IMG/VR virus record: IMGVR_UViG_2687453529_000007 | Length of the DNA: 19,211 nt | Reading direction: 5' to 3' (one strand) | Source: a virus | Lineage: Duplodnaviria; Heunggongvirae; Uroviricota; Caudoviricetes | Shown: positions 925 through 15,639 of the stretch, piece after piece | How positions within the stretch are numbered: the first letter of the stretch is position 1 | Layout: every line of letters begins with the position of its first letter | Made by a program: the position numbers and the translations under genes | Notes under the pieces: model-generated | What the model saw: only the letters and a program-made list of their open reading frames with translations | Database searches by the model: none | What the model was told of the DNA's origin: nothing

Positions 925-962
925 AAACACAACCCGCTACGGGGGAGACTTACCCGAAATCT

Positions 963-980
963 GATTTATTCAACAAAGCC
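963..980. repeat. IS903 right terminal inverted repeat
   Basis: GATTTATTCAACAAAGCC, matching the canonical 18-bp IS903 end. Confidence 0.8.
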
Positions 981-1508
981 ACGCGCTGGACACACCACGA
1001 TGACAGCGGTTTTATCCCTTACGCCATCACCACCGGCCTTGATTACGAGGCGATGACCGAACAGCGCAAAGGCTATGAGAACTTTGTTTATCAGAACGGC
1101 GTTTACGATCTCGGCACCAAAGGTGATATGCGACGTAACGAACGTAACCTGATGTGGAACCTCGATCCCTACATTCAAACGCACTGGCAGCTCACCTCAG
1201 CCCTGGGGCTGGACGCCGGGGCGCGCTATAGCTCGGTATGGTTTGATTCCAACGATCGTTATGTTGTAGGTAAAAATGGTGATGATAGCGGCGAAGCGAG
1301 CTATCACAAGTGGCTTCCGGCGGCAGCGCTGAAGTATGCCATGACGCCGCAGTGGAACGTTTACCTCTCTGCCGGGAGGGGATTTGAAACGCCGACCATT
1401 AACGAGCTGTCCTATCGTCCCGATGGTCAGTCCGGGCTTAACTTTGCTCTGCAACCGGCCACTAACACCACCGTTGAAGCAGGCAGTAAATGGCAGGTGG
1501 GCACCGGG
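981..1508 (+). pseudogene. Internal fragment of a TonB-dependent receptor-like outer membrane beta-barrel gene (no start, no native stop)
   Basis: Frame open directly from the IS end; translation contains TBDR-like barrel motifs (RGFETPTINELSY resembling the GF-R-APS/T-x-x-EL-Y motif; NFALQPATNTTVEAGSKWQ). Reads straight into lysC sequence in a different frame. Specific family not identified. Confidence 0.5.
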
Positions 1509-2689: not shown

Positions 2690-3037
2690 TTACGAATTAC
2701 TGCGGCGCTGTTGCTTTTCCGCATGTACGCGTTTCACAATCTTATAAATCCATTGCAGCGTCAGATTATATTTCTTCGCTAATTCGGCGTAGTTGCGCCC
2801 ATCGCACTCGCTATAGATTTGGTAGTCACGCTCCGATGCTCGTCCGGAGATCCCCTTAGGGAAATAGATGCTTTGTCCGCCCCAGTTACGCATCATTCGG
2901 TCGGCAATGGCAAAACCCACATTTTCTGCCGATGAACTGTCGAGATTGATGCTTTCAATCAGAACTTGCGATGCATGAAAAGCCAGGTCGTTAATGATCT
3001 CCGGTGTCCGGGCCATCTCTTTTGATTTTCGTATCAT
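2690..3037 (-). CDS. Mor/C-family (phage Mu middle/late operon regulator-like) transcriptional activator, 115 aa
   Basis: C-terminal region DGRNYAELAKKYNLTLQWIYKIVKR aligns with the Mu Mor helix-turn-helix region NGRNVSELTTRYGVTFNTVYKAIRR; GGAG RBS 7 nt upstream of the ATG; divergent from the lysis/tail genes. Confidence 0.75.
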   Translation of the reverse strand: MIRKSKEMARTPEIINDLAFHASQVLIESINLDSSSAENVGFAIADRMMRNWGGQSIYFPKGISGRASERDYQIYSECDGRNYAELAKKYNLTLQWIYKIVKRVHAEKQQRRSNS

Positions 3038-3258
3038 TTTTCATCTCCATATATCTTGCATCCTGAATAAGACCCGATGCGTGTAAAACCACGGATATAC
3101 GCTAAGCAGTTGTCATTACTGCTACTCAATACATTCAATAAACAAATAAACAATCACCAAAAATATAAACTTTTAATATTAATGAACGTCATAAATTCAC
3201 GAAATAAATATATTGTTTGGATTATGTTTCTTATCAACAGGAGTATCATTTTACACTA

Positions 3259-3278
3259 TACTGTATACATATACAGTA
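3259..3278. promoter_or_regulatory. LexA (SOS) operator, near-consensus
   Basis: TACTGTATACATATACAGTA versus consensus TACTGTATATATATACAGTA (CTGT-N8-ACAG core intact, one mismatch). Lies in the AT-rich divergent region between the Mor-like gene and the lysis genes, flanked by -10/-35-like hexamers on both strands. Confidence 0.75.
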
Positions 3279-3574
3279 TTATTTTTACCTGTAGAGTAAA
3301 AAGATCGTTTCCCTCACAGTCGCTGACTTTCTTAAACAAACTTTAAAAATCAAATAACTATCGACTATTCCTACGATCCACCATCATCTTTCCCCTGCAT
3401 AATGACGCGCTTATTAGCCTGGTCACCTTTTGCTCTTTAATTGCTGAGTCGATTTATTAGCGGGCTTGTTCATTTATAGAGAATCTATTTTTTAAACTTA
3501 TTTATTAAAGCTTTTTTCATTCTTCACTGGCGGGTTCTGACGACACTAAACGCTCACTTATCAGGAGATATCGT

Positions 3575-3862
3575 ATGAAAAAAGTCACTTTTCCCCGGCT
3601 TTCCGGCTGGCTAGTCGCTTCCGCCGCGCTGTTTGTCGTGATCGGCTGGACCTCTTCCGCACAGATCCCGGTCGTCATTTATAAACTAAGCCTGGTTTCG
3701 CTTTCCGCGGTGCTGGGATACTGGCTCGATCGCAGTTTGTTCCCCTGGGCACGGCCTGACTCTTTTAGCCCCTGGAAGGAACCTCGTTGCTGCGCGGCGG
3801 CAATGATTCGCCGCGCCATCATCGTTGCCGCCGTCTGTCTTTCCGTCGCCTTAGGGCTATAG
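3575..3862 (+). CDS. Small multi-pass membrane protein, putative holin (95 aa)
   Basis: AGGAG RBS 7 nt upstream; three hydrophobic segments; stop overlaps the start region of the downstream lytic transglycosylase (TAGTGATG). Function inferred from position. Confidence 0.45.
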   Translation: MKKVTFPRLSGWLVASAALFVVIGWTSSAQIPVVIYKLSLVSLSAVLGYWLDRSLFPWARPDSFSPWKEPRCCAAAMIRRAIIVAAVCLSVALGL

Positions 3863-3864
3863 TG

Positions 3865-4470
3865 ATGTGGCTGAAATATATCGCGTCTATGATTATTTTC
3901 GTTCTTTTCCCGCTTAACGCCTCTGAACCGCCGCGAGCCTCTCTGGCATGGCGAAACGAACTAATTCGTACAGCTCGAGAAGTCTGGGGGCTGAATGCTC
4001 CAGTGGCCGACTTTGCCGGGCAATTACACCAGGAGTCCGCCTGGCAGCCAATGGTACGTTCCCCCGTTGGCGCACAAGGTATGGCGCAATTTATGCCTGC
4101 TACAGCGACATGGATAAGCCAGTTGTATCCACAATTGCGTGAAAACAAACCGTATAACCCAACCTGGGCGATTCGCGCGCTGGTGCAATATGACCAGCAT
4201 TTGTGGAAAAACATCTCTGCGAAAAATGATTGTCAGCGTATGGCGTTTACCCTAAGCGCCTATAACGGCGGTCAGGGGTGGGTTAACCGGGATAAAAAAC
4301 TGGCTGCATCCAAAGGGTTAGATGCCACTAGCTGGTTTGGTCATGTTGAGCAAGTCAACGCCGGGCGCAGCGCCACGAACTGGCGAGAAAATCGTCGCTA
4401 TCCAAAGATGATCCTCTATCAACATGCCGCCCGCTATTTACTCTGGGGACAGGCAAGCTGTCTTCATTAA
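3865..4470 (+). CDS. Phage lytic transglycosylase (SLT domain) endolysin with N-terminal signal/SAR-like hydrophobic segment
   Basis: N-terminal MWLKYIASMIIFVLFPLNA hydrophobic stretch, then SLT motifs (LHQESAWQP with catalytic Glu, GMAQFMPATA, AYNGG). The track ORF 3787-4470 begins earlier with a non-ATG codon; ATG at 3865 sits directly after the holin stop. Confidence 0.8.
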   Translation: MWLKYIASMIIFVLFPLNASEPPRASLAWRNELIRTAREVWGLNAPVADFAGQLHQESAWQPMVRSPVGAQGMAQFMPATATWISQLYPQLRENKPYNPTWAIRALVQYDQHLWKNISAKNDCQRMAFTLSAYNGGQGWVNRDKKLAASKGLDATSWFGHVEQVNAGRSATNWRENRRYPKMILYQHAARYLLWGQASCLH

Positions 4471-4482
4471 TCAGAGGGGCCG

Positions 4483-4797
4483 ATGAAACTCAGTATCGAT
4501 TTTTGGGAAGTGATCTCCCTTATGCTTTCCTTCGTTGGATTAATGTTTGCTGCCGGAAAACTGCTGTTAGCACAAATTGAAAAACGACTTAATGAGCGTT
4601 TTGAGTCTCTGGAAAATGCCCGCAGGGAATCAGAAACAAGTTGGTCGAAACTGGAAAGAGAATTTCTCGAATTTCGTGCCGAGCTTCCGCTGCATTATGT
4701 CCGCAGAGAAGATTATCTTCGTGGGCAAGCAGTATTAGAAGCGAAGCTGGATGCCTTATATAGCAAAATCGAGCTGTTACAACGTGGCAGTTATTGA
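4483..4797 (+). CDS. Lysis accessory protein, Rz/i-spanin-like (N-terminal TM helix + coiled coil), 104 aa
   Basis: N-terminal TM segment EVISLMLSFVGLMFAAGKLLLA followed by charged coiled-coil-like sequence; position after the endolysin. No convincing embedded lipoprotein (o-spanin) ORF found by eye. Confidence 0.4.
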   Translation: MKLSIDFWEVISLMLSFVGLMFAAGKLLLAQIEKRLNERFESLENARRESETSWSKLEREFLEFRAELPLHYVRREDYLRGQAVLEAKLDALYSKIELLQRGSY

Positions 4798-4802
4798 AAA
4801 AT

Positions 4803-4834
4803 CCCCACCCTTATGTAAGGGTGGGGATTTTTTT
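4803..4834 (+). terminator. Rho-independent terminator closing the lysis cassette
   Basis: CCCCACCC-TTATGTAA-GGGTGGGG stem-loop followed by ATTTTTTT; an A-run upstream makes it potentially bidirectional. Confidence 0.85.
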
Positions 4835-4941
4835 AACCATTCAATTTTTTCTCTAAATCACATTAAAAGATTCTTCACCTTCGCTGCTTCAGAATACATT
4901 TCAACGATAACGAAGTGAGCGGTAATTAAGGTACAGCCTAT

Positions 4942-5397
4942 ATGGAAATTTTATCTGTAATGAATTCTGTTGTGACCAGATTACGTGAACACAACTCCGA
5001 AATGGATATATTTATTTCATCTAAGGATGCCCAGAAATATATTCCACAGACACAACGAGTTGCAGTGATTATTAATTATAGCGGTTCTGTCTTTGCTACG
5101 CCCGAAAGCAGTAATGCCATCGTGCAACAGCAAATACTCCGCTTAACCGCCACCGTTATTGTTGGCAAAAATTGTGATGCATTAAACGCACTTGATCACA
5201 TACGCAGCGCATTGGGTGGCCTTCCGCTTCCTGATTGTGATCGTCTGCTTTGGCTTGAAAAAGAAATTAATACGGGTGAGAGCGGCGGTTTCTGCCGCTA
5301 CATCCTGGAAATGGCGACCAGCTCGCTGTTTATCGCTGAACAGGAAAGCACGGATCTTCCCCTGCTTACGGAAGTTAACTACGAGGAAACTGAATGA
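4942..5397 (+). CDS. Putative tail completion / sheath-terminator-like protein (151 aa)
   Basis: First gene after the terminator, immediately upstream of a small ORF and the sheath gene, coupled to the next ORF. Family assignment is by position only. Confidence 0.35.
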   Translation: MEILSVMNSVVTRLREHNSEMDIFISSKDAQKYIPQTQRVAVIINYSGSVFATPESSNAIVQQQILRLTATVIVGKNCDALNALDHIRSALGGLPLPDCDRLLWLEKEINTGESGGFCRYILEMATSSLFIAEQESTDLPLLTEVNYEETE

Positions 5398-5591
5398 AAT
5401 ACATCTACAACGGCCCAGCAAGCGGCGTCACCCTTGCCGATGGACAAGAAATCTTATTGTGGCCGAACAGTGAAATTGATCTGCCAGAAGACAACGAGTG
5501 GGTCATGACCATGATTGCCCGCAATCATCTGACTCCTGTCATCACTCAGGAAGAACAAAATAACGTAGAGGAAATTGTACATGGCAGCTAA
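5394..5591 (+). CDS. Small conserved phage tail-module protein (65 aa) preceding the sheath gene
   Basis: GAGGAA RBS; ATG overlaps the upstream stop (ATGA); 3' end overlaps the sheath start by 11 nt. Function unknown. Confidence 0.4.
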   Translation: MKYIYNGPASGVTLADGQEILLWPNSEIDLPEDNEWVMTMIARNHLTPVITQEEQNNVEEIVHGS

Positions 5592-7005
5592 TTATCTGCA
5601 CGGTGTAGAAACTATTGAAATTGAAACCGGCCCGCGTCCGGTTAAAGCGGTAAAATCCGCCGTCATCGCTTTAATCGGTACATCCCCCTGCGGTCCGGTA
5701 AATAAACCAACATTATGCCTTTCTGAAAGCGATGCTGCGCAGTTTGGCTCGACTCAGGCTAACTTTACGATCCCACAGGCACTGAAGGCAATTTATGACC
5801 ACGGTGCCGGTACGGTGGTGGTGATTAACGTGCTGGATCCGGCAAAACATGGCTCCAACATCAGCAATGAGAGTATCACTTTTGATGCTAACAACCAGGC
5901 GAAGCTCGCTCACCGCAATGTGCGTAACGTGGTACTAAAGCCCTCTTCATCAAATTCATCAACCTTTAACACCGCAGCATTTAGCGTAGATGAACAAACA
6001 GGCATAATTACCCGTAAAGGAGCCGACATTCCTCCTGGTGCGAAAGTTTGTGCCTATTATTCCTGGTGCGACCCTACAAAGGTCACCGCAGCCGATATTA
6101 TCGGTACCGTAAATACCGCAGGCGACCGCACGGGGATGAAACTCCTTCAGGACACCTATAACCTGTACGGTTTCTACGCCAAAATCCTGCTTGCTCCTGT
6201 GTTTTGTACGCAAAAATCGGTGACTACTGAGCTGATTGCACAAGCGGAAAAACTCGGTGCGATTACCTACATTGATGCCCCGATTGGGACAACATTCCAG
6301 CAGGTATTGGCTGGACGCGGTTCGCAAGGGGCTATCAACTTCAATACCAGCTCTGATCGTGCGCGTTTATGTTACCCACATGTCAAAGTTTACGATGGCA
6401 TCACTAACCAGGAAATTCTTGAGCCTCTCTCTTCGCGTGCTGCCGGGCTGCGTGCCAAAGTAGACCTCGAAAAAGGTTTCTGGTGGAGCAACTCAAACCA
6501 GGAAATTCAGGGTATTACCGGTATTGAACGTTCGCTTTCCGCAATGATTGATGATCCACAAAGCGAAGTGAATCAGCTCAACGAAAACGGCATTACCACT
6601 ATTTTCAATAGTTACGGCTCTGGTCTGCGCTTGTGGGGTAACCGCACAGCGGCATGGCCTACCGTGACCCATATGCGTAACTTTGAAAACGTCCGCCGGA
6701 CAGGCGATGTAATCAATGAGTCAATCCGTTATTTCAGTCAGCAGTATATTGATATGCCGATTAATCAGGCACTTATTGACGCGCTGACCGAATCGGTAAA
6801 TACCTGGGGCCGAAAACTGATTGCCGACGGCGCACTGCTTGGCTTTGAGTGCTGGTACGATCCGGCACGAAATTCACCGGCTGAACTCAGCGCCGGGCAT
6901 TTATTGCTGAGCTATAAATTCACCCCGCCACCGCCGCTGGAACGTCTGACGTTTGAAACTGAAATTACTTCTGAATATTTAGTCTCTCTGGAGAGCAATA
7001 GCTAA
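5581..7005 (+). CDS. Contractile tail sheath protein (P2 gpFI-like)
   Basis: N-terminus MAANYLHGVETIEIETG resembles P2 FI (YHHGVQVLEINEG) and the C-terminus LLSYKFTPPPPLERLTFETEITSEYL resembles P2 FI ([26 protein letters not shown]). GAGG RBS 9 nt upstream of ATG 5581; the track ORF begins at TTG 5575. Confidence 0.9.
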   Translation: MAANYLHGVETIEIETGPRPVKAVKSAVIALIGTSPCGPVNKPTLCLSESDAAQFGSTQANFTIPQALKAIYDHGAGTVVVINVLDPAKHGSNISNESITFDANNQAKLAHRNVRNVVLKPSSSNSSTFNTAAFSVDEQTGIITRKGADIPPGAKVCAYYSWCDPTKVTAADIIGTVNTAGDRTGMKLLQDTYNLYGFYAKILLAPVFCTQKSVTTELIAQAEKLGAITYIDAPIGTTFQQVLAGRGSQGAINFNTSSDRARLCYPHVKVYDGITNQEILEPLSSRAAGLRAKVDLEKGFWWSNSNQEIQGITGIERSLSAMIDDPQSEVNQLNENGITTIFNSYGSGLRLWGNRTAAWPTVTHMRNFENVRRTGDVINESIRYFSQQYIDMPINQALIDALTESVNTWGRKLIADGALLGFECWYDPARNSPAELSAGHLLLSYKFTPPPPLERLTFETEITSEYLVSLESNS

Positions 7006-7529
7006 TGGCTGGAAAAATTCAAATTAACCGTATTACCAACGCCAATATTTATCTCGATGGTAATAACCTTTTAGGTCGTGCAACAGAAATTAAATTGCCG
7101 GATGTAAGTTTAATTATGCAGGAGCATAAAGCACTGGGCATGGTGGGTAAAATCGAACTCCCGGCAGGTTTCGATAAACTGGAGGGCGAAATTAAATGGA
7201 ACTCCTTCTATCAGGACGTAATGCGTAAAACGGCAAACCCGTGGCAGGCGGTTGCATTACAGTGCCGCTCCAGTATTGATTGCTATAACTCCCAGGGGAA
7301 AGCGAATCAATTAGCGCTAGTGACACATTTAACCGTGATGTTTAAAAAGAATCCACTGGGCACATTTAAACAGAATGAAAACCCGGAATTCAGCAGCGCC
7401 TTTGGTTGCACTTATATTAAACAAGTAGTTGATGGTGAAACGCTGCTTGAACTTGATTATATGGCCAATATTTTCCGGGTTAATGGTGTGGATCAATTAA
7501 GTACCTATCGCAATAACATCGGTGGCTAA
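7005..7529 (+). CDS. Tail tube protein (P2 gpFII-like)
   Basis: Start overlaps the sheath stop; C-terminus NGVDQLSTYRNNIGG matches the P2 FII end NGVDRLEQHRRNIGL. Confidence 0.85.
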   Translation: MAGKIQINRITNANIYLDGNNLLGRATEIKLPDVSLIMQEHKALGMVGKIELPAGFDKLEGEIKWNSFYQDVMRKTANPWQAVALQCRSSIDCYNSQGKANQLALVTHLTVMFKKNPLGTFKQNENPEFSSAFGCTYIKQVVDGETLLELDYMANIFRVNGVDQLSTYRNNIGG

Positions 7530-7579
7530 GTTATTCGGGGCTACGGCCCCGAACTTTGCAAAATAAATAAGGACACAAA

Positions 7580-7897
7580 ATGAAAGAACATTATATCTTG
7601 CAGTTTCCATTTACGTCGGCAGCAGGAAATAATATCGACACGCTGCAATTACGTCGCCTGAAAGTAAAAGATATGCGCAACGCCCGCCGGATCAGCGAAA
7701 AGCCAGAAGAGTGGGATGAACCGCTGATGGCGGCGATGACCGGACTGGTGCCAGAAGATTTAGCCGAAATGGATTTGCTGGATTACCAGGCATTGCAGAA
7801 ACGATTTCAATCCATGCTTACCGTGGTTACAGAATCCTCCCCTGCTATGGCAGGCAATGGCGCTACTGGCGAGATGGTTTCGCTTTCCGCCCAGTGA
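7580..7897 (+). CDS. Tail assembly chaperone (gpE/gpG-like), short product
   Basis: Small acidic protein between tube and tape measure genes, the position of frameshifting tail chaperones. Confidence 0.6.
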   Translation: MKEHYILQFPFTSAAGNNIDTLQLRRLKVKDMRNARRISEKPEEWDEPLMAAMTGLVPEDLAEMDLLDYQALQKRFQSMLTVVTESSPAMAGNGATGEMVSLSAQ

Positions 7898-7985
7898 GAT
7901 AGACGCCCTTACCGTCGATGACTTTAGCAACTGGCTGGATGAAGCCAGCGCCCAAATAAAAATCGAATATGACTCGCAGACCTGA
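7580..7985 (+). CDS. Frameshift-extended chaperone isoform (E+E'-like), requiring a +1 shift
   Basis: A +1-frame ORF is open from 7764 to the TGA at 7983-7985 and would append ...PPSEIDALTVDDFSNWLDEASAQIKIEYDSQT. The only candidate shift motif seen is CTT_TCC at 7883-7888. Site and mechanism are not proven. Confidence 0.4.
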
Positions 7986-8086
7986 TGTCTGCGAGTTTCC
8001 CAAGCCCGTCAGGTTTATTTCTTCCCTGCCCCTTTTTTTAGAAAAATAACCAGCGGGCCATTATCAATATTTAAAGAGAAACAATT

Positions 8087-8887
8087 TTGGCCAACGATAT
8101 TATTACCCAGCTTCAGGCGCGTAATGAGACGTTGACGCAGGCAATAGCCCGTTACGGCTCACTCAACGCCAGAACATTGTTAACTCTCTCTACTCAGCAG
8201 GCGACAGTTATCAAACTAACGCAGCAGCTTGCCGATTCCGCTCTCCGCCTGGAGGAAAATAGCCGCAGCCGCGCTAATCTGATGGAGAAAACCCAAACAT
8301 TTGCCGGGCAATTTAGCAAAGTATTCAATGTTGAAGCCCCCGACTGGAAGTTGCCGTATGAGTTTCAGGACAACATGGTCAATATGGCGACCAAAGGTGG
8401 GATGAATGCTACAACCCGCGAGACGCTCAGCCTTAATCTGCGCGACTGGAGCATGGATTTTAACCAGCAGCAGACCACCTTACAGAACGCAGCCCAAACG
8501 CTGATCGAAGGCAATTTGTCGTCGATGCAGGATCTCAACCGTTATATGCCGGAGATCGCCAAAGCTGCCACCGCCACGCGCGAAAGTGCTGAAACGTGGG
8601 CGAATGCCGCGCTCGCGACTCATGATCGACTGAATATTGCCCCGGAAAATTTCCACGCCGCGCAAAACATGATGTACGGCATTAGCAAAAGCGGTGGGCC
8701 TGCCATTGCTGAACAAACGCAGTGGATAGAGAAATTTGCAGGTAAAACCGGCGCTCAGGGTCTGGAAGGTATGGCTGAACTGACTGCCGCCATGCAGATC
8801 GCAATGAAAAATGGGGCCAGCGCCAGTGCGGCGGCGGAGAATTTTGAACCACTTTCTGCAAACCACCTTTTCGAAAAAAACCGATAG
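8087..8887 (+). CDS. Tail tape measure protein, N-terminal segment (frame A); TTG start
   Basis: Helical N-terminal region typical of tape measure proteins; ends at TAG 8885-8887 while a second frame continues. In-frame stop at 8072-8074 restricts the start to the TTG at 8087 (RBS AAGAG upstream). Confidence 0.6.
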   Translation: MANDIITQLQARNETLTQAIARYGSLNARTLLTLSTQQATVIKLTQQLADSALRLEENSRSRANLMEKTQTFAGQFSKVFNVEAPDWKLPYEFQDNMVNMATKGGMNATTRETLSLNLRDWSMDFNQQQTTLQNAAQTLIEGNLSSMQDLNRYMPEIAKAATATRESAETWANAALATHDRLNIAPENFHAAQNMMYGISKSGGPAIAEQTQWIEKFAGKTGAQGLEGMAELTAAMQIAMKNGASASAAAENFEPLSANHLFEKNR

Positions 8888-10463
8888 CTGGTTCGCCAGC
8901 CAGGGCGTCGATCTGCAAGGCTCTCTGCTTGAACATCAGCAAAACGGTATGGGTGTTAGCGAAGCCATGACTCATATCGTACAAATGCAGCTTGAGAAGA
9001 TGAACCCGGCGATCCTCGACACCTTCAAACGTACTATGCAGATTGAAGATTTATCTGCTCGCAGCAATGCGCTGCAATCGATGGTGTCGCAATTTAATCT
9101 GGGCGAAATGTTCGGCGATGTGCAAACGGTGGAATTCCTGGCACCTATGCTGGCGAATATGGAGGAATATCGCCAGTTAAAAGCCTCTGCCATGCAAGCC
9201 ACCAGCAAGAATCTGATTAACGCTGACTTTTCTGCGCAAATGGCCTCGCCCATTGAACAGACTAAAGCGTTACAGCTGGCATTAAATGATTTATGGCTCA
9301 GCATTGGTTTGCAGCTTATGCCGGCGATTGGCGAGCTGGCACAAAGCCTTACGACGGTTATTCGCCAGTTCAGCGCCTGGCTACGCGAACATCCGGCGCT
9401 GGTGCAAAACATTGCGAAAATCGTCGGGGCGGTTTGGCTGTTTAACGGCGCGCTGAATGTTTTAAAGCTGGGCGCGAACCTCATCACCTCGCCGTTTATT
9501 CGTCTGGTCGATATCTTCCTGAAAGTCAAGGCAAGTCTGGCGCTCACAGGCGGGGCAAGTAAGATGCTATCAGCGGTTAAGTCATTGGGTGGCGGCGCAA
9601 AATGGCTAATGCAACTGCTTGGTCGTGGCCTGATTGGCGCACTGAAACAGGTAGGTCAGACCGTCTTCTGGTTGGGTAGGGTTTTATTGATGAATCCCAT
9701 TGGTCTGGTCATCACTGCGATTGCGGGCGCTGCTTATCTGATTTGTCGCAACTGGGAGCCTATCTCCAGGTTCTTTTCGACCATCTGGCAACGTATCACC
9801 ACGGCCTTTGACGGCGGCATTGCAGGAATTTGTCGGTTGATTCTCGACTGGTCACCGCTGGAGTTGTTCTATAGCGCCTTTTCCAGTGTGATGAATTGGT
9901 TTGGTGTCGAGATGCCTGCAAGTTTTAGCGAGTTCGGCAGCAATCTTCTGGGCAGTCTGGTTGACGGCATAATGAATGCCTTCCCCGCTCTGAAAGGCAT
10001 TATTGATCAGGTAAAAAACGCCATCCCAGACTGGCTAAAAACCACGATGGGTATTAGTACAGAAGGATCGGCTACAGCTATTACAAGCACGACTAATACC
10101 GCATCCGTCTCCCCCGCGACCGTTGTTCCAGGCGTTGCCGGTGCGATTTTAACACCGCCGGTGGGCAAACAACTCGCGCCATCCGGCAAAACGGCTACGC
10201 CGTCATCGGCGCCAGCGGCAAAAAATACAGCCGCCAAACCCGTATCTGCCTCTTTACCTGGTAAATCCGTAACCAAACCGGCGACGCTACCCTCCCGTTC
10301 CTCAGGAAAAGTCCAGGTAAATTTTTCGCCACAAATTACCGTGCAGGGTAACGGACAAAACACCACTAAAGAGATTCAGAACGTGTTGACGATGAGTAAA
10401 CGCGAACTGGAAAGAATGATTAACGATGTAATGGCGCAGCAGCAGCGCCGGGGGTATGCCTGA
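8811..10463 (+). CDS. Tail tape measure protein, main/C-terminal segment (frame B, +1 relative to frame A)
   Basis: Frame B opens after the TGA at 8805-8807 and encodes typical tape-measure content (LQTTFSKKTDSWFASQGVDLQ motif region, long hydrophobic/Gly-Ala-rich middle, Ser/Thr/Pro-rich tail). Segments together total about 790 aa. Confidence 0.65.
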   Translation: MGPAPVRRRRILNHFLQTTFSKKTDSWFASQGVDLQGSLLEHQQNGMGVSEAMTHIVQMQLEKMNPAILDTFKRTMQIEDLSARSNALQSMVSQFNLGEMFGDVQTVEFLAPMLANMEEYRQLKASAMQATSKNLINADFSAQMASPIEQTKALQLALNDLWLSIGLQLMPAIGELAQSLTTVIRQFSAWLREHPALVQNIAKIVGAVWLFNGALNVLKLGANLITSPFIRLVDIFLKVKASLALTGGASKMLSAVKSLGGGAKWLMQLLGRGLIGALKQVGQTVFWLGRVLLMNPIGLVITAIAGAAYLICRNWEPISRFFSTIWQRITTAFDGGIAGICRLILDWSPLELFYSAFSSVMNWFGVEMPASFSEFGSNLLGSLVDGIMNAFPALKGIIDQVKNAIPDWLKTTMGISTEGSATAITSTTNTASVSPATVVPGVAGAILTPPVGKQLAPSGKTATPSSAPAAKNTAAKPVSASLPGKSVTKPATLPSRSSGKVQVNFSPQITVQGNGQNTTKEIQNVLTMSKRELERMINDVMAQQQRRGYA

Positions 10464-11416
10464 TGTATGCCGTTTTAGGAGAGATTGAATTTAAGGTTGT
10501 CACATTCTGGGACGGCTTTAAAAGCACAATGGGCGTGGATTACGCCACACATGCCCGTATAGAAGGCAAACCCGGCGTGCAGTTTATTGGCGATAAGCTG
10601 GATATGCTGGCGCTGGAATTTTCCCTGCACAGCCAGTTTTGCCAGCCCACAACAGAGCTGAACCGACTGCGTGAAGCCATGCTTGCTCACAAGGCGATGG
10701 CACTGGTATTTGGCAATGGCGATTATCGCGGCTGGTTTGTGATTACGGAGCTAACCGCCACCCACCAGCACACCGATCCCTGGGGCAATGTGATTGCCCA
10801 AAACGGAACGATGTCGCTCCAGGAGTACACCGGCGATCCTAAAAATCCACTTTTACCTCCGGCGATTACCACCCAGGAGCCCAACATCGAGGAAAAGGCG
10901 AGCGATTTTCCCGACAAGGTGGAGTCCTGGTTTGATCAGATATTAAACGCCATCGAAGAAGGTATGCGTAAGGCCAAAGAGATGCTGGATGAACTGACAC
11001 AAGCCATTGAAGATATTAAAAAAACGGTGGCAAAAGTGAAAGCAATGATTAAAGAGGCCAAAGCGTTAAAAGAAAAGTGTGAAAAGATAATTACGTCATT
11101 GAAAAAGACAATCGACGCCATCGAAACCCTGTTTAAACAGCCAATGGATCTGCAAACGCTGGCAGGACTCCCAAAAGCGTTGTCGGCGCAGATTAAAACT
11201 TTACTGGGTAACATGCCAGGTATCCGGGACTGCGCCAATGACGCCAGTACACTGGTTGACCATGCTCAGGCGCTTTTCGACGACATTACCAGCGACATCG
11301 CCGAAGCGACGTTTGATAAAGCCGCAACGTTGGTTGATCAGGCACGAACAACGGTACAACAAACCACTCCCACAGTGAGCCAGCTTGCTGCCGCGACCAT
11401 TACGAGGATCTGGTGA
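10463..11416 (+). CDS. gpU-like tail protein with long C-terminal coiled-coil extension (317 aa)
   Basis: Sits between tape measure and gpX/gpD as P2 gpU does; ATG overlaps the tape measure stop (TGATG). C-terminal ~190 aa are E/K/A-rich predicted coiled coil. Assigned by synteny and weak N-terminal resemblance. Confidence 0.5.
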   Translation: MYAVLGEIEFKVVTFWDGFKSTMGVDYATHARIEGKPGVQFIGDKLDMLALEFSLHSQFCQPTTELNRLREAMLAHKAMALVFGNGDYRGWFVITELTATHQHTDPWGNVIAQNGTMSLQEYTGDPKNPLLPPAITTQEPNIEEKASDFPDKVESWFDQILNAIEEGMRKAKEMLDELTQAIEDIKKTVAKVKAMIKEAKALKEKCEKIITSLKKTIDAIETLFKQPMDLQTLAGLPKALSAQIKTLLGNMPGIRDCANDASTLVDHAQALFDDITSDIAEATFDKAATLVDQARTTVQQTTPTVSQLAAATITRIW

Positions 11417-11625
11417 TGCGATACCTTGAACATATCACCACCGACGGCGAACGCTGGGATAATCTGGCATGGCATTACTACGGTGATGCGCTGGCTTATG
11501 AACGCATAATCGCCGCCAATCCACATGTAGCCATTTACCCGGTACTGCCTTCCGGTATTCAGCTCATTATTCCGGTCATTTCCGTCAATAAAACCTTATC
11601 GGAGATCCCACCATGGCTGAGATAA
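11416..11625 (+). CDS. gpX-like small tail protein (LysM-like fold)
   Basis: Pattern L-x-x-I-x-x-x-x-ERWD-x-L-A-W-x-YYGD...AANP...LPSG matches the P2 gpX family; ATG 11416 overlaps the upstream TGA (track start 11413 is a GTG). Confidence 0.6.
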   Translation: MRYLEHITTDGERWDNLAWHYYGDALAYERIIAANPHVAIYPVLPSGIQLIIPVISVNKTLSEIPPWLR

Positions 11626-12653
11626 GCGTAACTGGTGGCGTCTTTGCCACACTCACGCCCATTTTTACCCTCTGGTATGGGCATAAAGATATCACTTATG
11701 ACATCACACCCTATGTCACCAGCATCAGTTACCACGACAGCATCAAAAACGAGTCGGATACCATCGCAATTACACTGGATGACACAGATGGACGCTGGAT
11801 AAAAGAGTGGTATCCCGGCAAAGGCGATACGCTGGCGCTGCATATGGGTTATCAGGGAGAGAAGCTGCTCGATTGTGGTCAGTATATTATTGATAAAATT
11901 GATATTTCAGCGCCACCTTCTACGGTAAATATTGATGGCATCGCCACTTCCGTCAATCAGGCGCTGCGCACCCGTAACAGCCAGGGTTTTGAAGAAACGA
12001 CGCTTTCGGCTATCGCCAGCCGTATCGCACAAACTCACGGCCTAAAGCTGGTGGGCAAAATCGAGCCTCTGACAATTGACCGGGTGACACAGTACGGCGA
12101 AACCGATGTTGGATTTCTCAAACGTCTGGCCAGTGAATATGGTTATGCCGTAAAAGTGACGACGAAAGAGCTGATTTTTTCACATTTACCCACGCTGCGC
12201 TGCCTGGCACCTGTGAAAAAGATCGACCGCAAAGACGTTTCGCATTTCACCTTCAAAGATACCATTAACCGTATCTACAAAAACGCCACCGTACAGCATC
12301 AAAATAGTAAGAAAAAAGAACTGGTTATCTACACTCACAACAGCCAGCAAAAACCGTCTGCCCGTGGAGTCGGCACCAGTGCCGACACGCTAAAACTGAA
12401 CAGTCGGGCGACGGACGTTGGCGCAGCACAGGCAAAAGCCAACGCTGCACTCGACAGCCACAACGAATATCAGCAAACCGGAACGCTCACAATGATGGGC
12501 TGCCCGGAACTGACGGCGGGCAATAAAATCGAGCTAACCGATTTTGGCGTGCTTTCCGGTCAATGGCTAATTGATAAATCGACTCACAGTTTTGTGCGCA
12601 GCGGCTATACCACTGAAATCGACGTGTCGCGCGGGCCAGCGACCAGCCAGTAA
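11613..12653 (+). CDS. gpD-like tail protein (late control D family; baseplate hub)
   Basis: Collinear similarity to P2 gpD: TLSAIASRIAQ / DVGFLKRLASEYG / C-terminal DFGVLSGQWLIDKSTHSFVRSGYTTEIDV. GGAG RBS. Confidence 0.8.
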   Translation: MAEISVTGGVFATLTPIFTLWYGHKDITYDITPYVTSISYHDSIKNESDTIAITLDDTDGRWIKEWYPGKGDTLALHMGYQGEKLLDCGQYIIDKIDISAPPSTVNIDGIATSVNQALRTRNSQGFEETTLSAIASRIAQTHGLKLVGKIEPLTIDRVTQYGETDVGFLKRLASEYGYAVKVTTKELIFSHLPTLRCLAPVKKIDRKDVSHFTFKDTINRIYKNATVQHQNSKKKELVIYTHNSQQKPSARGVGTSADTLKLNSRATDVGAAQAKANAALDSHNEYQQTGTLTMMGCPELTAGNKIELTDFGVLSGQWLIDKSTHSFVRSGYTTEIDVSRGPATSQ

Positions 12654-12662
12654 GGAGGAAAT

Positions 12663-13364
12663 ATGAAAGGAGTAACCCGTCAAACGGGGATTATCAGCGA
12701 TATTGACGAAACCAGCGTTCGGGTGCGGGTCACGCTCCCGGAGTGTGACAATCTGAAGAGCAACTGGCTTGCGGTACTTCAACGCAATTCCCAGGACAAT
12801 AAAGACTACTGGCTACCGGATATGGGCGAGCAAGTGGAAGTTCTGCTGGACAATAACGGTGAAGATGGCGTGGTGCTGGGCGCAGTTTATTCTACGGTTG
12901 ACACCGCGCCTGTAGCCTCGCGCGACAAACGTTACGTCCAGTTTTCTGATGGCGCAGCGTTTGAATATGACCGCAGCACGCACCAGCTGACGATCAACGG
13001 CGGTATCGAGAAAATCGTGATTGAGGTTATCAACGGTACCTGCCTGACATCGCCCAACGTTGAGATTAAAGCCCAACAGGTCACCGTGACTTCCGATACC
13101 GTCGATGTTAAAGCGACCGATGTCAGCATCGACGCCACTAAGGTCGAGGTTAAAGCAGCAGCAGTGACGGTAGATGCGCCCATGAGCACCTTTACTGGCA
13201 ACGTCACGGTAATGAAAAAACTCACCTGGCTTGGCGGGATGGCAGGAAGTGGAGGCATCGGTAACGCAGCCACGATAACCGGCAATGTCAACGTGATCGG
13301 CAACGTTCAGGCCAGCGGCGCATTGCAGGACAGCGGTGGCAACTCCAACCACCATTCACACTGA
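12663..13364 (+). CDS. gpV-like baseplate spike protein
   Basis: Strong RBS TAAGGAGG; MGEQVEVLLDNNGEDGVVLGAVYS and VQFSDGAAFEYDRSTHQLTINGG match P2 gpV motifs; C-terminal His-rich tip NHHSH. Confidence 0.85.
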   Translation: MKGVTRQTGIISDIDETSVRVRVTLPECDNLKSNWLAVLQRNSQDNKDYWLPDMGEQVEVLLDNNGEDGVVLGAVYSTVDTAPVASRDKRYVQFSDGAAFEYDRSTHQLTINGGIEKIVIEVINGTCLTSPNVEIKAQQVTVTSDTVDVKATDVSIDATKVEVKAAAVTVDAPMSTFTGNVTVMKKLTWLGGMAGSGGIGNAATITGNVNVIGNVQASGALQDSGGNSNHHSH

Positions 13365-13369
13365 CGTTT

Positions 13370-13399
13370 AACCCGCCTGATGGCGGGTTTTCTCTTTTT
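13370..13399 (+). terminator. Intrinsic terminator inside the tail gene cluster (between gpV-like and gpW-like genes)
   Basis: AACCCGCC-TGAT-GGCGGGTT stem-loop followed by TTCTCTTTTT. Confidence 0.7.
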
Positions 13400-13462
13400 A
13401 ATCAATCAGTTTTCTAAATCGCTTTAATATCTCCACAGCCCGTTCAGGGCGAAAATACCCTC

Positions 13463-13822
13463 ATGAACACAAAAACACGCCCCTCAACGCTGCACTGGCA
13501 ACCGGCCTTGCTGCGGCCTGAAGAATACGTCTGCGGACTGGATGATATTCACCAGGCAATACACATCATTCTGCGTACACCGCGCGGCAGTGATCCCCAC
13601 AGACCGCTGTTTGGCAGCAACTTGTGGCACTACATCGATTACCCCATCGAGCGGGCTATCCCGCATGTGGTACGGGAGTCGGTGGAAGCCATCCGCCAGT
13701 GGGAACCGCGCTGTCGGTTGCTGAAGGTGACACCAGTAATCGACGGCGAACATCTGACGTTACGTGTGCAATGGCGCGCCGCTGACGGCGTTATCAACTC
13801 AACGGAGGTGTTATGGCGATAG
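13463..13822 (+). CDS. gpW-like baseplate protein (GPW/gp25 family)
   Basis: ILRTPRGSDPHRPLFGSNLWHYIDYP and WEPR match P2 gpW (ILRTPVGSRVMRRDYGSLL...IDQP, KWEPR). Confidence 0.85.
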   Translation: MNTKTRPSTLHWQPALLRPEEYVCGLDDIHQAIHIILRTPRGSDPHRPLFGSNLWHYIDYPIERAIPHVVRESVEAIRQWEPRCRLLKVTPVIDGEHLTLRVQWRAADGVINSTEVLWR

Positions 13823-14928
13823 CCGAACCCAATTTTATTGACCGCGATCCTGCGCAAATTACCAGTGAGATGATTGCGCAATACGAAGATGCCAGTGGTA
13901 AAAAACTCTATCCGGCACAGGCTGAGCGGTTGCTCATCGACCTGTTTGCCTATCGTGAAAACCTTGTACGCATCGCCATTCAGGAAGCGGCGAAACAAAA
14001 CCTGGTCGCGTATTCCCGCGCGCCAATGCTGGATTATTTAGGAGAGCTGGTGGGCGTTCACCGTTTGCCTGCGCAGCCAGCAAAAACGACGTTGCAGTTT
14101 TCGGTCGTCAGTGCGTATACCAGCAATATCCTGATTCCCCAGGGGACGCGGGCCAGTGCCTCTGATAGCGTGATGTTCGCCACCGATGAAGATGTTCTGC
14201 TTCCGGCCTGGAGTTTGCATATCGCCGTTCCTGCCACCAGCCTCGCAGCAGGTGAACAGGGTAACGGCTGGCAGCCTGCACAAATTAGCGCTCTGGTCGA
14301 CAGGATTGGTCATTATGACATCAACGTAACCAACCTGACTGCGTCAACGGGCGGCTGCGGTGAAGAGAGCGATGACGCATTGCGCCAGCGTATCCAACTG
14401 GCACCAGAAAGCTTTAGTAATGCGGGCAGCTATGGCGCATACCGCTTTCATACGCTTTCTGTTAGCCAGTCGATTATTGACGTTGCAGTACTGGGGCCGG
14501 ACGAGGGATTGCCAGAAGGCTGCGTGGAGATCTACCCGCTAACCCTGAATGGACTGCCAGGAATAGAACTGCTCGCGCAAATCGAACAGGAGGTTAGCAA
14601 GGAGAAAAAACGTCCGCTGACCGACAAAGTGAGTGCGAAATGCGCTCTTCGAGTGCCGTATGAGATCCGTGCGCAGCTAACGCTGTTTACCACCGCCGAT
14701 CAGGAGACAACGCTGGCTGCGGCGCGTAAAGCGATTAGCCTCTGGACGCAACAGCGGCAGAAACATCTGGGGCAAGACATTGTGCCAAACCAGATAATCA
14801 AAGTGTTACAGGTCGATGGCGTCTATGACGTTGCGCTGAACTTGCCTACAAAACGTATTTTGCAGGCGCATGAATGGGCGGAATGCACTGCAATAGACGT
14901 CACGATCGCCGGAGTTAGCGATGGATAA
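13813..14928 (+). CDS. gpJ-like baseplate wedge protein
   Basis: Size, position after gpW and overlapping start (GGAGG RBS) fit the P2 gpJ / Mu gp47 family. Confidence 0.8.
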   Translation: MAIAEPNFIDRDPAQITSEMIAQYEDASGKKLYPAQAERLLIDLFAYRENLVRIAIQEAAKQNLVAYSRAPMLDYLGELVGVHRLPAQPAKTTLQFSVVSAYTSNILIPQGTRASASDSVMFATDEDVLLPAWSLHIAVPATSLAAGEQGNGWQPAQISALVDRIGHYDINVTNLTASTGGCGEESDDALRQRIQLAPESFSNAGSYGAYRFHTLSVSQSIIDVAVLGPDEGLPEGCVEIYPLTLNGLPGIELLAQIEQEVSKEKKRPLTDKVSAKCALRVPYEIRAQLTLFTTADQETTLAAARKAISLWTQQRQKHLGQDIVPNQIIKVLQVDGVYDVALNLPTKRILQAHEWAECTAIDVTIAGVSDG

Positions 14929-15637: not shown

Positions 15638-15639
15638 TA

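What the first reader, a model, noticed from the sequence alone, without database searches (positions are those of the whole stretch)
7764..7985. Tail chaperone appears to need a +1 (not the canonical -1) frameshift
The chaperone ORF ends at 7897, and the only overlapping open frame that extends past it is the +1 frame (open 7764-7985). The -1 frame hits TAG within a few codons. The one plausible shift motif is CTT_TCC at 7883-7888, analogous to the CUU_U slip in prfB. Tail chaperone frameshifts are conserved but nearly always -1.
Basis: seen in the sequence. Interest (0 to 1): 0.6.

Follow-up and report, generated by a model that had tools for sequence, protein, structure and literature searches.

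The report
Tail chaperone +1 frameshift, different site

Summary
The chaperone ORF (7580-7897) stops at TGA 7895. The +1 frame is open 7764-7985 and the -1 frame stops at TAG 7900. The +1-frame peptide is a homologue of P2 gpE', so it is real coding sequence. The window is a Mu/BcepMu-like tail gene cluster in the E. coli chromosome.

I compared 213 related loci. In 165 the extension lies in the +1 frame (Enterobacterales, Burkholderia, Pseudomonas, most Neisseria). In 48 it lies in the -1 frame, and those carry classical -1 slippery sites, mostly the lambda-type G_GGA_AAG.

The proposed CTT_TCC site (7883-7888) is not supported:
- It is not conserved.
- In several relatives it lies beyond the frame-0 stop.
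- It sits inside the conserved E' domain.

The only element shared by all 165 +1 loci is a Phe codon UUU followed by C. In the window this is TTT 7805-7807 and C 7808, in the context CGA_UUU_CAA. None of the 48 -1 loci has it. Amino-acid conservation switches from frame 0 to frame +1 at this codon.

The best model is a P-site slip of tRNA-Phe from UUU to UUC. That would give a 134-aa long form alongside the 105-aa short form. UUU_Y +1 slippage and +1/-2 tail-chaperone frameshifts are both already documented, so this is a new, unannotated member of a known kind. Nothing has been tested experimentally.

The parts
7580..7897 (+). Short form of the tail assembly chaperone (105 aa, P2 gpE / Mu gp41-like), read in frame 0
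   Evidence: Pfam PF10109 Phage_TAC_7, 69.9 bits against a cutoff of 25. PHROG 166 'tail protein'. RefSeq annotates it as 'phage tail assembly protein'. It lies between the tail tube gene and the tape measure gene.
7802..7810 (+). Proposed recoding cassette CGA_UUU_CAA. The +1 slip would occur on UUU (7805-7807) onto UUC (7806-7808).
   Evidence: TTT_C is found at this aligned Phe codon in 165 of 165 loci with a +1-frame extension and in 0 of 48 loci with a -1-frame extension. Synonymous sites are frozen: CGA in all enteric contexts listed except CGG in L012, and TTT is invariant. Frame conservation crosses over here.
7809..7985 (+). +1-frame extension: 58 codons (NPCLPWLQNPPLLWQAMALLARWFRFPPSEIDAL...DSQT) plus the TGA stop. 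Joined to residues 1-76 it gives a predicted 134-aa long form.
   Evidence: The frame is open. It contains an invariant +1-frame Trp codon, TGG 7824-7826. The predicted fusion is collinear with P2 E+E' and with the fusions of the -1 group.
7857..7958 (+). gpE'-like domain within the +1-frame extension
   Evidence: Pfam PF06528, 17.7 bits, below the gathering score of 23. 12 of 16 family fusions match it at E<=0.01. PHROG 8286, E=1e-20. BLASTP against P2 E' gives E=7e-4. Some genomes annotate it as a 42-aa 'GpE family phage tail protein'.
7883..7888 (+).
   Evidence: It is not conserved. In seven relatives it lies downstream of the frame-0 stop. It sits inside the conserved E' domain.
7005..7529 (+). 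Tail tube gene (context: upstream neighbour)
   Evidence: Pfam PF04985, 189.9 bits.
8087..10463 (+). Tape measure gene (context: downstream neighbour). In this window a 1-nt insertion near 8847 splits it into two ORFs.
   Evidence: Pfam PF10145. NZ_CP042896.1 has a single ORF at 8087-10462. The indel was located.

Best explanation
This is the tail assembly chaperone pair of a Mu/BcepMu-like contractile tail gene cluster. It is homologous to P2 gpE and gpE+E' and analogous to lambda gpG and gpGT.

Most ribosomes read frame 0 to TGA 7895 and make the 105-aa short form. A minority, with peptidyl-tRNA-Phe (anticodon GAA) on UUU 7805-7807 in the P site, re-pair one base downstream on UUC 7806-7808. 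They then continue in the +1 frame from AAU 7809 to TGA 7983. The product is a 134-aa long form: residues 1-76 (...ALQKRF) fused to NPCLPWLQNPPLLWQAMALLARWFRFPPSEIDALTVDDFSNWLDEASAQIKIEYDSQT.

By analogy with lambda and P2, both forms would bind the tape measure protein through the shared N-terminal domain. The E' domain of the rare long form would recruit the tube protein.

Shown here: the gene order, the homology of both parts, conservation of the +1-frame extension, the invariant UUU_C, and the point where conservation changes frame. Inferred, not shown: that a shift happens at all, that it is a +1 slip of tRNA-Phe, its efficiency, and the function of the two products.
For: 1. Anatomy. The ORF sits between the tube and tape measure genes, and its N-terminal part is Phage_TAC_7.

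2. The extension is real coding sequence. It matches the GpE family, PHROG 8286 and P2 E'.

3. In 165 loci from Enterobacterales, Burkholderia, Pseudomonas and Neisseria the extension is in the +1 frame. Every one has TTT followed by C at the codon aligned with F76. The 48 loci with a -1-frame extension never have it. They carry in-phase G_GGA_AAG (44), A_AAG_GGG (3), or a T7 run at that same Phe position (L050).

4. If the site is homologous across loci, stops bound it to a 26-nt window. In L049 and L161 the +1 frame opens only 8 nt upstream of TTT. In L176 the frame-0 stop begins 18 nt after the first T.

5. In 81 distinct enteric sequences, frame 0 is the better conserved frame upstream of TTT (mean BLOSUM 3.85 against 2.23). 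The +1 frame is better conserved from two codons downstream onwards (for example 3.31 against 1.96, and later 4.99 against 2.79). The wobble-position pattern agrees.

6. Synonymous sites are frozen. TTT is invariant. R75 is CGA in all enteric contexts listed except CGG in L012, while other conserved Arg codons in the gene are CGT or CGC. In loci with at least 60% GC, TTT makes up about 21% of Phe codons in long ORFs, yet the site is always TTT.

7. The predicted fusion is collinear, without indels, with P2 E+E' and with the fusions of the -1 group.

8. Precedent. [quoted passage not shown] Influenza PA-X shifts +1 on UCC_UUU_CGU (PMC3498833). BcepMu has TCC_TTT_CGC at the aligned site.
Against: There is no experimental evidence for either product.

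UUU_C is a weak and common signal. It occurs 10 times in frame in the other genes of this window.

No stimulator was found. There is no Shine-Dalgarno-like sequence upstream. The A-site codon is an ordinary CAA or CAG, not a stop or a rare codon. No conserved downstream RNA structure was detected (z=-1.15; consensus energy -3.8 kcal/mol).

F76 is also a conserved residue of the chaperone domain in these clades. Its presence is therefore partly explained by protein function. Only the synonymous choice TTT and the following C are specific to the model.

The 165 loci are phylogenetically related, so the count overstates the number of independent observations.

The 16 codons just after TTT are poorly conserved in both frames. 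The crossover is therefore located only to within a few codons.

In this window an ATG at 7857 could in principle start the E' part on its own.
Confidence: 0.68

Rival explanations
1. The +1 shift happens at CTT_TCC (7883-7888). It would resemble prfB and give the junction ...EMVSL-PPSEIDAL.
For: CTT_T is present in frame 0, lies inside the overlap, and is close to the frame-0 stop. CUU_U is the most efficient +1 shift site known in E. coli (PMC5009743).
Against: The motif is absent from PhiKM (GTT TCA), Xenorhabdus and Photorhabdus (GTT TCA, GTT CCA) and all Burkholderia, Pseudomonas and Neisseria members. In L025, L026, L030 and L034-L037, frame 0 has already stopped upstream of that position. 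A shift there would remove ALLARWFRF, which has the strongest +1-frame conservation in the region and a +1-frame wobble pattern and forms Pfam GpE positions 1-10. There is no A-site stop codon and no upstream Shine-Dalgarno-like element.
Confidence: 0.04
2. The ribosome makes a -2 shift, as shown for phage Mu gp41, rather than a +1 shift. The product would carry one extra residue.
For: Mu is a relative in tail gene organisation. It reaches a +1-frame extension by a -2 shift (Xu et al. 2004, as cited in PMC5009743). The Mu sequence has CGG_GGG_CGA at the end of gp41.
Against: A -2 slip needs re-pairing two bases upstream. At the only conserved element, the -2 codon is GAU (enterics), CCU (BcepMu), UAU or UGU (Pseudomonas), or GGU or CCU (Neisseria). 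None of these pairs with tRNA-Phe. No G or other homopolymer run like that of Mu is conserved in the overlap.
Confidence: 0.06
3. There is no recoding. The E' part is made as a separate 42-aa protein from ATG 7857, as PGAP annotates it in some genomes ('GpE family phage tail protein').
For: An ATG opens the last 42 codons of the +1 frame in the Escherichia/Salmonella clade. Databases hold such 42-aa entries (P0002 and P0003).
Against: The ATG is confined to that clade. Pectobacterium, PhiKM-like, Xenorhabdus, Burkholderia, Pseudomonas and Neisseria loci have no start codon at a conserved position, and most candidate starts lack a Shine-Dalgarno sequence, including the one at 7857. +1-frame conservation and the invariant Trp codon (TGG 7824-7826) lie upstream of the ATG. 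In the -1-frame relatives and in P2 the same domain is joined to the chaperone by a canonical slippery heptamer (PMC3091744).
Confidence: 0.1
4. The frame change happens at the RNA level, by RNA polymerase slippage, or the overlap is a decaying pseudogene with no function.
For: The tape measure gene of this window is itself broken by a 1-nt insertion, so this copy of the cluster may be decaying. One relative (L038) and one database protein (P0001) carry indel or deletion fusions.
Against: Transcriptional slippage needs long A or T runs, and the site has only three T. The arrangement is identical in intact clusters and in phages deposited as isolates (BcepMu, phiE255, PhiKM). It is conserved across four bacterial orders with purifying selection on the +1 frame.
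Confidence: 0.03

Closest known systems
Phage P2 gpE / gpE+E' (tail chaperone pair; -1 frameshift at T_TTT_TTG)
   Same: Both halves are homologous (Phage_TAC_7 and the GpE domain). The gene sits in the same place, between tube and tape measure. The fusion has a similar length and is collinear. The shift point lies at the end of the chaperone domain, on a Phe/U-rich codon within about 3 codons of the window's F76 (PMC3091744).
   Different: In P2 the extension is in the -1 frame and is reached by a tandem slip on a heptamer. Here it is in the +1 frame, there is no heptamer, and only UUU_C is present.
Phage Mu gp41 and its frameshift extension (-2 frameshift)
   Same: Both belong to Mu-like contractile tail modules. 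The window cluster has a Mor activator and a gp37-family gene. In both, the extension lies in the +1 frame relative to the chaperone (PMC5009743).
   Different: Mu has a G-run (CGG_GGG_CGA) that allows re-pairing at -2. The window family has no such run. I did not test whether the Mu extension carries a GpE domain.
Lambda gpG / gpGT (-1 at G_GGA_AAG)
   Same: The logic is the same: an abundant short form and a rare long form that share an N-terminus. The Pasteurellaceae and Moraxella members of this very family use the identical heptamer G_GGA_AAG. Lambda's ratio is about 30:1 (PMC5009743).
   Different: I found no sequence homology to lambda G or T. The direction of the shift differs.
UUU_Y +1 frameshift sites (bacterial UUU_Ynn; the proposed site for Yersinia YopN-TyeA; influenza PA-X UCC_UUU_CGU)
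   Same: The proposed event is the same: P-site tRNA-Phe moves from UUU to UUC. BcepMu has TCC_TTT_CGC and Neisseria has TGG_TTT_CGT (PMC3498833).
   Different: In the window the following codon is CAA, not CGN, and the preceding codon is a conserved CGA. No known stimulator is present. I know of no previous assignment of this site type to the P2 E / BcepMu chaperone family.
Forward (+1) tail assembly chaperone frameshifts annotated in actinobacteriophages (SEA-PHAGES) and proposed for haloarchaeal HSTV-2
   Same: The gene class and the direction of the shift are the same. PMC10274946 counts 350 forward cases. HSTV-2 is mentioned in PMC5009743.
   Different: These are unrelated protein families in different hosts. 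Most of those sites rest on annotation rather than experiment.

Membership tests
Tail assembly chaperone with programmed frameshift (lambda G/GT, P2 E/E+E' type) | The gene lies between the major tail/tube gene and the tape measure gene | tested here: met
   Tube gene 7005-7529, chaperone 7580-7897, tape measure gene from 8087.
Tail assembly chaperone with programmed frameshift (lambda G/GT, P2 E/E+E' type) | A second ORF overlaps the 3' end in another frame, has no conserved start of its own, and extends towards the tape measure gene | tested here: met
   The +1 frame is open 7764-7985. No start codon or Shine-Dalgarno sequence is conserved across clades.
Tail assembly chaperone with programmed frameshift (lambda G/GT, P2 E/E+E' type) | A conserved slippery sequence lies within the overlap | tested here: met
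   TTT_C is present in 165 of 165 +1 loci. The canonical heptamer G_GGA_AAG is present in 44 of 48 -1 loci of the same family, and three more have A_AAG_GGG.
Tail assembly chaperone with programmed frameshift (lambda G/GT, P2 E/E+E' type) | Two proteins that share an N-terminus are made in a fixed ratio, and both are needed for tail assembly | not testable with these tools
   This needs protein detection and genetics.
P2 gpE / gpE+E' protein family | The N-terminal part belongs to Pfam PF10109 (Phage_TAC_7) | tested here: met
   69.9 bits against a cutoff of 25. 16 of 16 family fusions match.
P2 gpE / gpE+E' protein family | The C-terminal extension belongs to Pfam PF06528 (Phage_P2_GpE) | tested here: inconclusive
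   The window extension scores 17.7 bits, below the gathering score of 23. Supporting evidence: 12 of 16 relatives match at E<=0.01, best 1e-21; BLASTP against P2 E' gives E=7e-4; PGAP names the 42-aa ORF 'GpE family'.
P2 gpE / gpE+E' protein family | -1 frameshift at T_TTT_TTG | tested here: not met
   The extension is in the +1 frame and there is no heptamer in the overlap.
UUU_Y-type +1 ribosomal frameshift site | A zero-frame UUU is followed by a pyrimidine, so that tRNA-Phe can re-pair at +1 | tested here: met
   TTT 7805-7807 and C 7808. Invariant in the +1 group.
UUU_Y-type +1 ribosomal frameshift site | A slow A-site codon (stop or rare codon) or an upstream Shine-Dalgarno-like stimulator | tested here: not met
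   The A-site codon is CAA or CAG (enterics) or CGC, CGG or CGT (the other clades). I saw no conserved Shine-Dalgarno-like sequence in the aligned upstream contexts. No conserved structure was found.
UUU_Y-type +1 ribosomal frameshift site | A shifted product with junction Phe followed by the +1-frame residue | not testable with these tools
   This needs mass spectrometry. The predicted tryptic peptide is FNPCLPWLQNPPLLWQAMALLAR.
prfB-type +1 site (CUU_UGA with a Shine-Dalgarno sequence) | CUU_U with an in-frame stop codon in the A site and a Shine-Dalgarno sequence 3 nt upstream | tested here: not met
   At 7883 the A-site codon is UCC. There is no Shine-Dalgarno sequence. The motif is not conserved.
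Mu-type -2 frameshift | A homopolymer or repeat that allows re-pairing two bases upstream | tested here: not met
   No such run is conserved in the overlap. Mu has GGGGG.

The most novel reading that the evidence does not exclude
The UUU_C site may be a genuine programmed +1 signal that works without a stop codon, a hungry codon, a Shine-Dalgarno sequence or RNA structure. In Enterobacterales it might be assisted by the strictly conserved, otherwise rare CGA codon immediately 5' of it. CGA forms an I:A wobble pair, so it could act as a weak E-site codon or a distorting P-site codon. The same U-rich Phe position also appears to toggle between -1 and +1 recoding through single-nucleotide indels: T_TTT_TTG in P2, a T7 run in Neisseria L050, TTT_TTT_C in L176, and TTT_C here. 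That would make this family a natural series for studying how the direction and efficiency of frameshifting are set.
Probability: 0.3. Interest if true: 0.6.

Novelty: new member of a known kind. Interest (0 to 1): 0.42.

Why it matters
First, annotation. RefSeq annotates only the 105-aa ORF in the E. coli genomes I inspected. PGAP sometimes calls a free-standing 42-aa 'GpE family' ORF. The BcepMu GenBank record assigns the slippage product to a different ORF. A correct join at UUU_C would fix the annotation of the long chaperone form in the related E. coli, Salmonella, Pectobacterium, Xenorhabdus, Burkholderia, Pseudomonas and Neisseria prophages and tail clusters sampled here.

Second, mechanism. 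One protein family uses a -1 heptamer, a -1 U-run and a +1 UUU_C at nearly the same codon. That gives a natural comparative set for asking what fixes the ratio of short to long chaperone. It also offers a simple test of how efficient an unstimulated UUU_C site is in vivo.

The finding does not change the general picture of tail chaperone recoding.

Tried and rejected
- CTT_TCC as the shift site: rejected. It is not conserved, it lies beyond the frame-0 stop in seven loci, and it sits inside the conserved domain.
- The conserved frame-0 'GCA GGC' (7850-7855) that I noticed early: dropped. It reflects the +1-frame residues Q-A and is absent in Pectobacterium (GAA AGC).
- Downstream RNA stimulator: none found. 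Single-sequence z=-1.15. A nine-sequence RNAalifold run gave -3.8 kcal/mol, with only one pair showing a compensatory change.
- Upstream Shine-Dalgarno-like stimulator: none seen in the aligned contexts.
- A slip on AAA 7799-7801: rejected, because that codon varies (AAA, CAA, ACC, GAC, AAG).
- Independent initiation of E': no conserved start codon.
- NCBIfam has no model for either part.
- L038 (Apirhabdus) has an in-frame fusion caused by a 1-nt deletion two to three codons upstream of GATTTC. It is a single case and may be decay or a sequencing error, so I did not use it as evidence.
- P0001 is an internal-deletion allele and is not informative.
- The codon table selected sequences with a regex that contained CG[AG]TTTCA, so it is biased for those two codons. 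The unbiased selection gives the same result, and that is the one I rely on.
- The first heptamer scan had a phase bug. One search replaces it.
- The Phe codon background uses all long forward ORFs, which may include some spurious ones in GC-rich DNA. The 21% figure is approximate.
- Xu et al. 2004 and Christie et al. 2002 could not be read. I cite them only through papers that describe them.
- Structure prediction was not attempted.

Full report
**1. What the window is.** The finding lies in a block of contractile-tail genes: sheath (5575-7005), tube (7005-7529), a 105-aa ORF (7580-7897), tape measure (from 8087), then baseplate and fibre genes. The same DNA occurs in the chromosome of 199 of 5,426 complete E. 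coli genomes. There it sits next to pgi and lysC and is preceded by a Mor-family activator, a holin, a transglycosylase and a Gp37-family gene. RefSeq calls the 105-aa ORF 'phage tail assembly protein' and annotates nothing in the +1 frame. Related phages are classified as Bcepmuvirus: PhiKM and BcepMu.

**2. Check of the observation.** A three-frame translation confirms every coordinate. Frame 0 ends at TGA 7895-7897. The +1 frame is open 7764-7985. The -1 frame ends at TAG 7900-7902. CTT_TCC is at 7883-7888. The frame-0 protein is Pfam Phage_TAC_7, the family of P2 gpE, Mu gp41 and others (69.9 bits). The +1-frame peptide matches Phage_P2_GpE from the codon at 7857 onwards (MALLARWFRFPPSEIDAL...). 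That match scores 17.7 bits, below the gathering score of 23. It is backed by BLASTP against P2 E' (E=7e-4), by PHROG 8286 (E=1e-20), and by PGAP's own name for the 42-aa ORF in other genomes, 'GpE family phage tail protein'.

**3. Comparative data.** I collected 58 loci from one genome per species and 160 loci from viral contigs, and added PhiKM, BcepMu, a Salmonella locus, Mu and P2. In each locus I fixed frame 0 from the conserved chaperone motif and searched the other two frames for the E' motif. The extension is in the +1 frame in 165 loci: Enterobacterales, Burkholderia, Pseudomonas and most Neisseria. It is in the -1 frame in 48 loci: Pasteurellaceae, Moraxella and one Neisseria. The -1 group has textbook slippery sites in the correct phase: G_GGA_AAG, the lambda G/GT heptamer, in 44; A_AAG_GGG in 3; and a T7 run in Neisseria L050. 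L057, which that scan did not classify, has T_TTT_TTC, and P2 has T_TTT_TTG (PMC3091744). The extension peptides of both groups align with each other and with P2 E'.

**4. Why CTT_TCC is not the site.**
- The motif is missing in many +1 loci. PhiKM has CCG GTT TCA and Xenorhabdus has TCG GTT TCA. Burkholderia, Pseudomonas and Neisseria have nothing similar.
- In L025, L026, L030 and L034-L037, frame 0 stops immediately after ..GEVV, upstream of the equivalent position. A shift there is impossible in those loci.
- The nine codons before it in the +1 frame (ALLARWFRF) form the start of the GpE domain. They vary almost only at +1-frame third positions. They give the highest +1-frame conservation in the region, mean BLOSUM about 5-6 against about 3 for frame 0. 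They are therefore translated in the +1 frame, and the shift must occur upstream of 7857.

**5. Where the shift most likely is.**
- The only element common to all 165 +1 loci is a Phe codon TTT followed by C, at the codon aligned with F76 of the window protein (TTT 7805-7807, C 7808).
- The contexts are CGA_TTT_CAR in enterics, TCC/GCC_TTT_CGC in Burkholderia, GTA/GTG_TTT_CGG/C in Pseudomonas, and TGG/ACC/ACT/TTT_TTT_CGY in Neisseria.
- None of the 48 -1 loci has TTT_C there. Those with Phe at that position have TTT_A, or TTT_T in the T7 run of L050. L057 has TTC_A.
- If the site is homologous across loci, stop codons bound it tightly. In L049 and L161 the +1 frame opens only 8 nt before TTT. 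In L176 frame 0 stops 18 nt after the first T.
- In 81 distinct enteric sequences with no indels, frame 0 is the better conserved frame up to TTT (3.85 against 2.23). The +1 frame overtakes it from two codons after TTT. A +1-frame Trp codon (TGG 7824-7826) is invariant, while the overlapping frame-0 codon is Leu, Met or Val.
- Synonymous sites around the site are frozen. TTT is invariant. The preceding Arg is CGA in every enteric context listed except CGG in L012, although other conserved Arg codons of the gene are CGT or CGC.
- In the GC-rich hosts TTT is the minority Phe codon, about 21% in long ORFs of the same loci, yet it is always used here.

**6. [quoted passage not shown] It is the proposed site for the Yersinia YopN-TyeA fusion (PMC5009743). 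The influenza PA-X site is UCC_UUU_CGU (PMC3498833), which is almost the BcepMu sequence TCC_TTT_CGC. The simplest model is that peptidyl-tRNA-Phe, whose GAA anticodon pairs by a G:U wobble on UUU and by G:C on UUC, re-pairs one base downstream. An equivalent model with the same product is that Phe-tRNA binds UUC out of frame while the CGA-decoding tRNA occupies the P site.

The predicted long form has 134 residues: 1-76 plus 58 +1-frame codons. It aligns without indels to the fusions of the G_GGA_AAG group and to P2 E+E'. In P2, 19 residues separate the shift point from the residue where the BLASTP match to E' begins. Here the figure is 17.

A -2 shift, as in Mu, is unlikely, because no codon two bases upstream of the conserved site can pair with tRNA-Phe and no Mu-like G-run exists. 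I found no stimulator: no conserved RNA structure, no Shine-Dalgarno-like element, and an ordinary A-site codon. The conserved CGA in enterics may matter, but that is speculation. The efficiency is unknown. For lambda, the ratio of short to long form is given as about 30:1 (PMC5009743), so a weak site would be enough.

**7. Rival explanations.** Independent initiation at ATG 7857 is possible for this clade only. The ATG has no Shine-Dalgarno sequence and is not conserved in other clades, and +1-frame conservation extends upstream of it. Transcriptional slippage is implausible on three T. Pseudogene decay does not fit the conservation across four orders, or the identical arrangement in intact clusters and isolated phages.

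**8. Comparison with what is known.** The system works like lambda G/GT and P2 E/E+E', and by homology it belongs to the P2 E family. It fails one P2-specific feature, the -1 shift at T_TTT_TTG. Frameshifts other than -1 in tail chaperones are established. Mu uses -2, and -1, -2 or +1 are used in different tailed phages (PMC5009743). PRFect extracted 350 forward cases against 2,368 backward cases from SEA-PHAGES annotations (PMC10274946).

I did not find this particular site assigned to this family anywhere. RefSeq E. coli records lack it. PHROGs lists the extension as 'unknown function'. The BcepMu record labels the +1 ORF gp42 and places the slippage product in 'gp43', a stretch that reads better as a small membrane protein gene on the opposite strand. 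The literature searches returned no paper describing it. The two key primary papers could not be read, so prior description cannot be excluded.

**9. An evolutionary point.** Within Neisseria, L176 has GAA_TTT_TTT_CGT with a +1-frame extension. L050 has GAC_TTT_TTT_TCA with a -1-frame extension. One extra T at this spot moves the extension from the +1 frame to the -1 frame and at the same time creates a -1-slippery U7 run. P2's T_TTT_TTG lies within three codons of the same position. The family therefore appears to switch the direction of recoding by single-base indels in one U-rich patch. This is an inference from a few sequences.

**10. Verdict.** The feature is a conserved, unannotated, probably weak +1 programmed frameshift of a known type in a known gene class. 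It is interesting mainly for annotation and as a comparative series. Interest 0.42. Confidence in the UUU_C model 0.68.

Noticed in passing
window 8840-8850 (tape measure gene 8087-10463): The window has one extra A (TTTTGAACCAC, against TTTTGACCAC in NZ_CP042896.1). This splits the tape measure gene into ORFs 8087-8887 and 8811-10463. The comparison genome has a single 2,376-nt ORF. The tail cluster of this strain is therefore either inactivated or carries a sequencing error.
   Followed up: yes
window 1-1508: The first 1.5 kb does not match the comparison genome. ORF 1-924 is an IS5-family transposase (NCBIfam NF033579, 357 bits). The insertion replaces the lysine riboswitch and the first roughly 220 nt of lysC, which in NZ_CP042896.1 starts at the equivalent of 1286.
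   Followed up: partly
window 2690-18406: The cluster contains a Mor-family activator, a lysis cassette and a full set of tail, baseplate and fibre genes, but no head, portal, terminase or integrase genes. It lies between lysC and a nucleotidyltransferase gene. This is the layout of a tail-only element (an R-type tailocin or a prophage remnant). Many of the related loci come from viral contigs of only 14-17 kb.
   Followed up: no
window 7971-7997: An 11-bp hairpin (GACUCGCAGAC-CUGAU-GUCUGCGAGUU; -17.7 kcal/mol; z=-4.3) holds the stop codon of the +1-frame extension in its loop. The Salmonella locus keeps it through paired changes (CGCAGGC...GCCUGCG). PhiKM has a different hairpin just after its stop, and Pectobacterium has none. 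It has no U-tract, so it is not a classical terminator. It may be a transcript 3'-end or attenuation element between the chaperone and the tape measure gene.
   Followed up: partly
L003 (BcepMu NC_005882) 1885-2271: The annotated 'gp43, alternative gene42 C-terminus produced by ribosomal slippage' overlaps what reads, by eye, as a small hydrophobic ORF on the opposite strand (MNIQSIAEGITYTVIAIAGVVLAVWLF...). The lambda-T equivalent in BcepMu appears to be gp42 joined to gp41 at TCC_TTT_CGC, not gp43.
   Followed up: partly
L038 (Apirhabdus apintestini CP138906) about 1690-1900; protein P0001: There are two natural alleles in which the chaperone N-terminus is fused in frame to the E' part. L038 has a 1-nt deletion two to three codons upstream of GATTTC. 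P0001 has an internal deletion joining residue 41 to ..NPQQLWQAMALLARWF. Each may be decay, a sequencing error or a 'long form only' variant.
   Followed up: partly
window 7802-7804 and the aligned codon in all enteric loci: Arg75 is encoded by CGA, a rare codon in E. coli, in every distinct enteric context listed except one (CGG in L012). Other conserved Arg codons of the same gene are CGT or CGC. Amino-acid coding in frame 0 does not explain this. It might reflect a context requirement of the shift site, or the +1-frame Asp codon GAT.
   Followed up: partly
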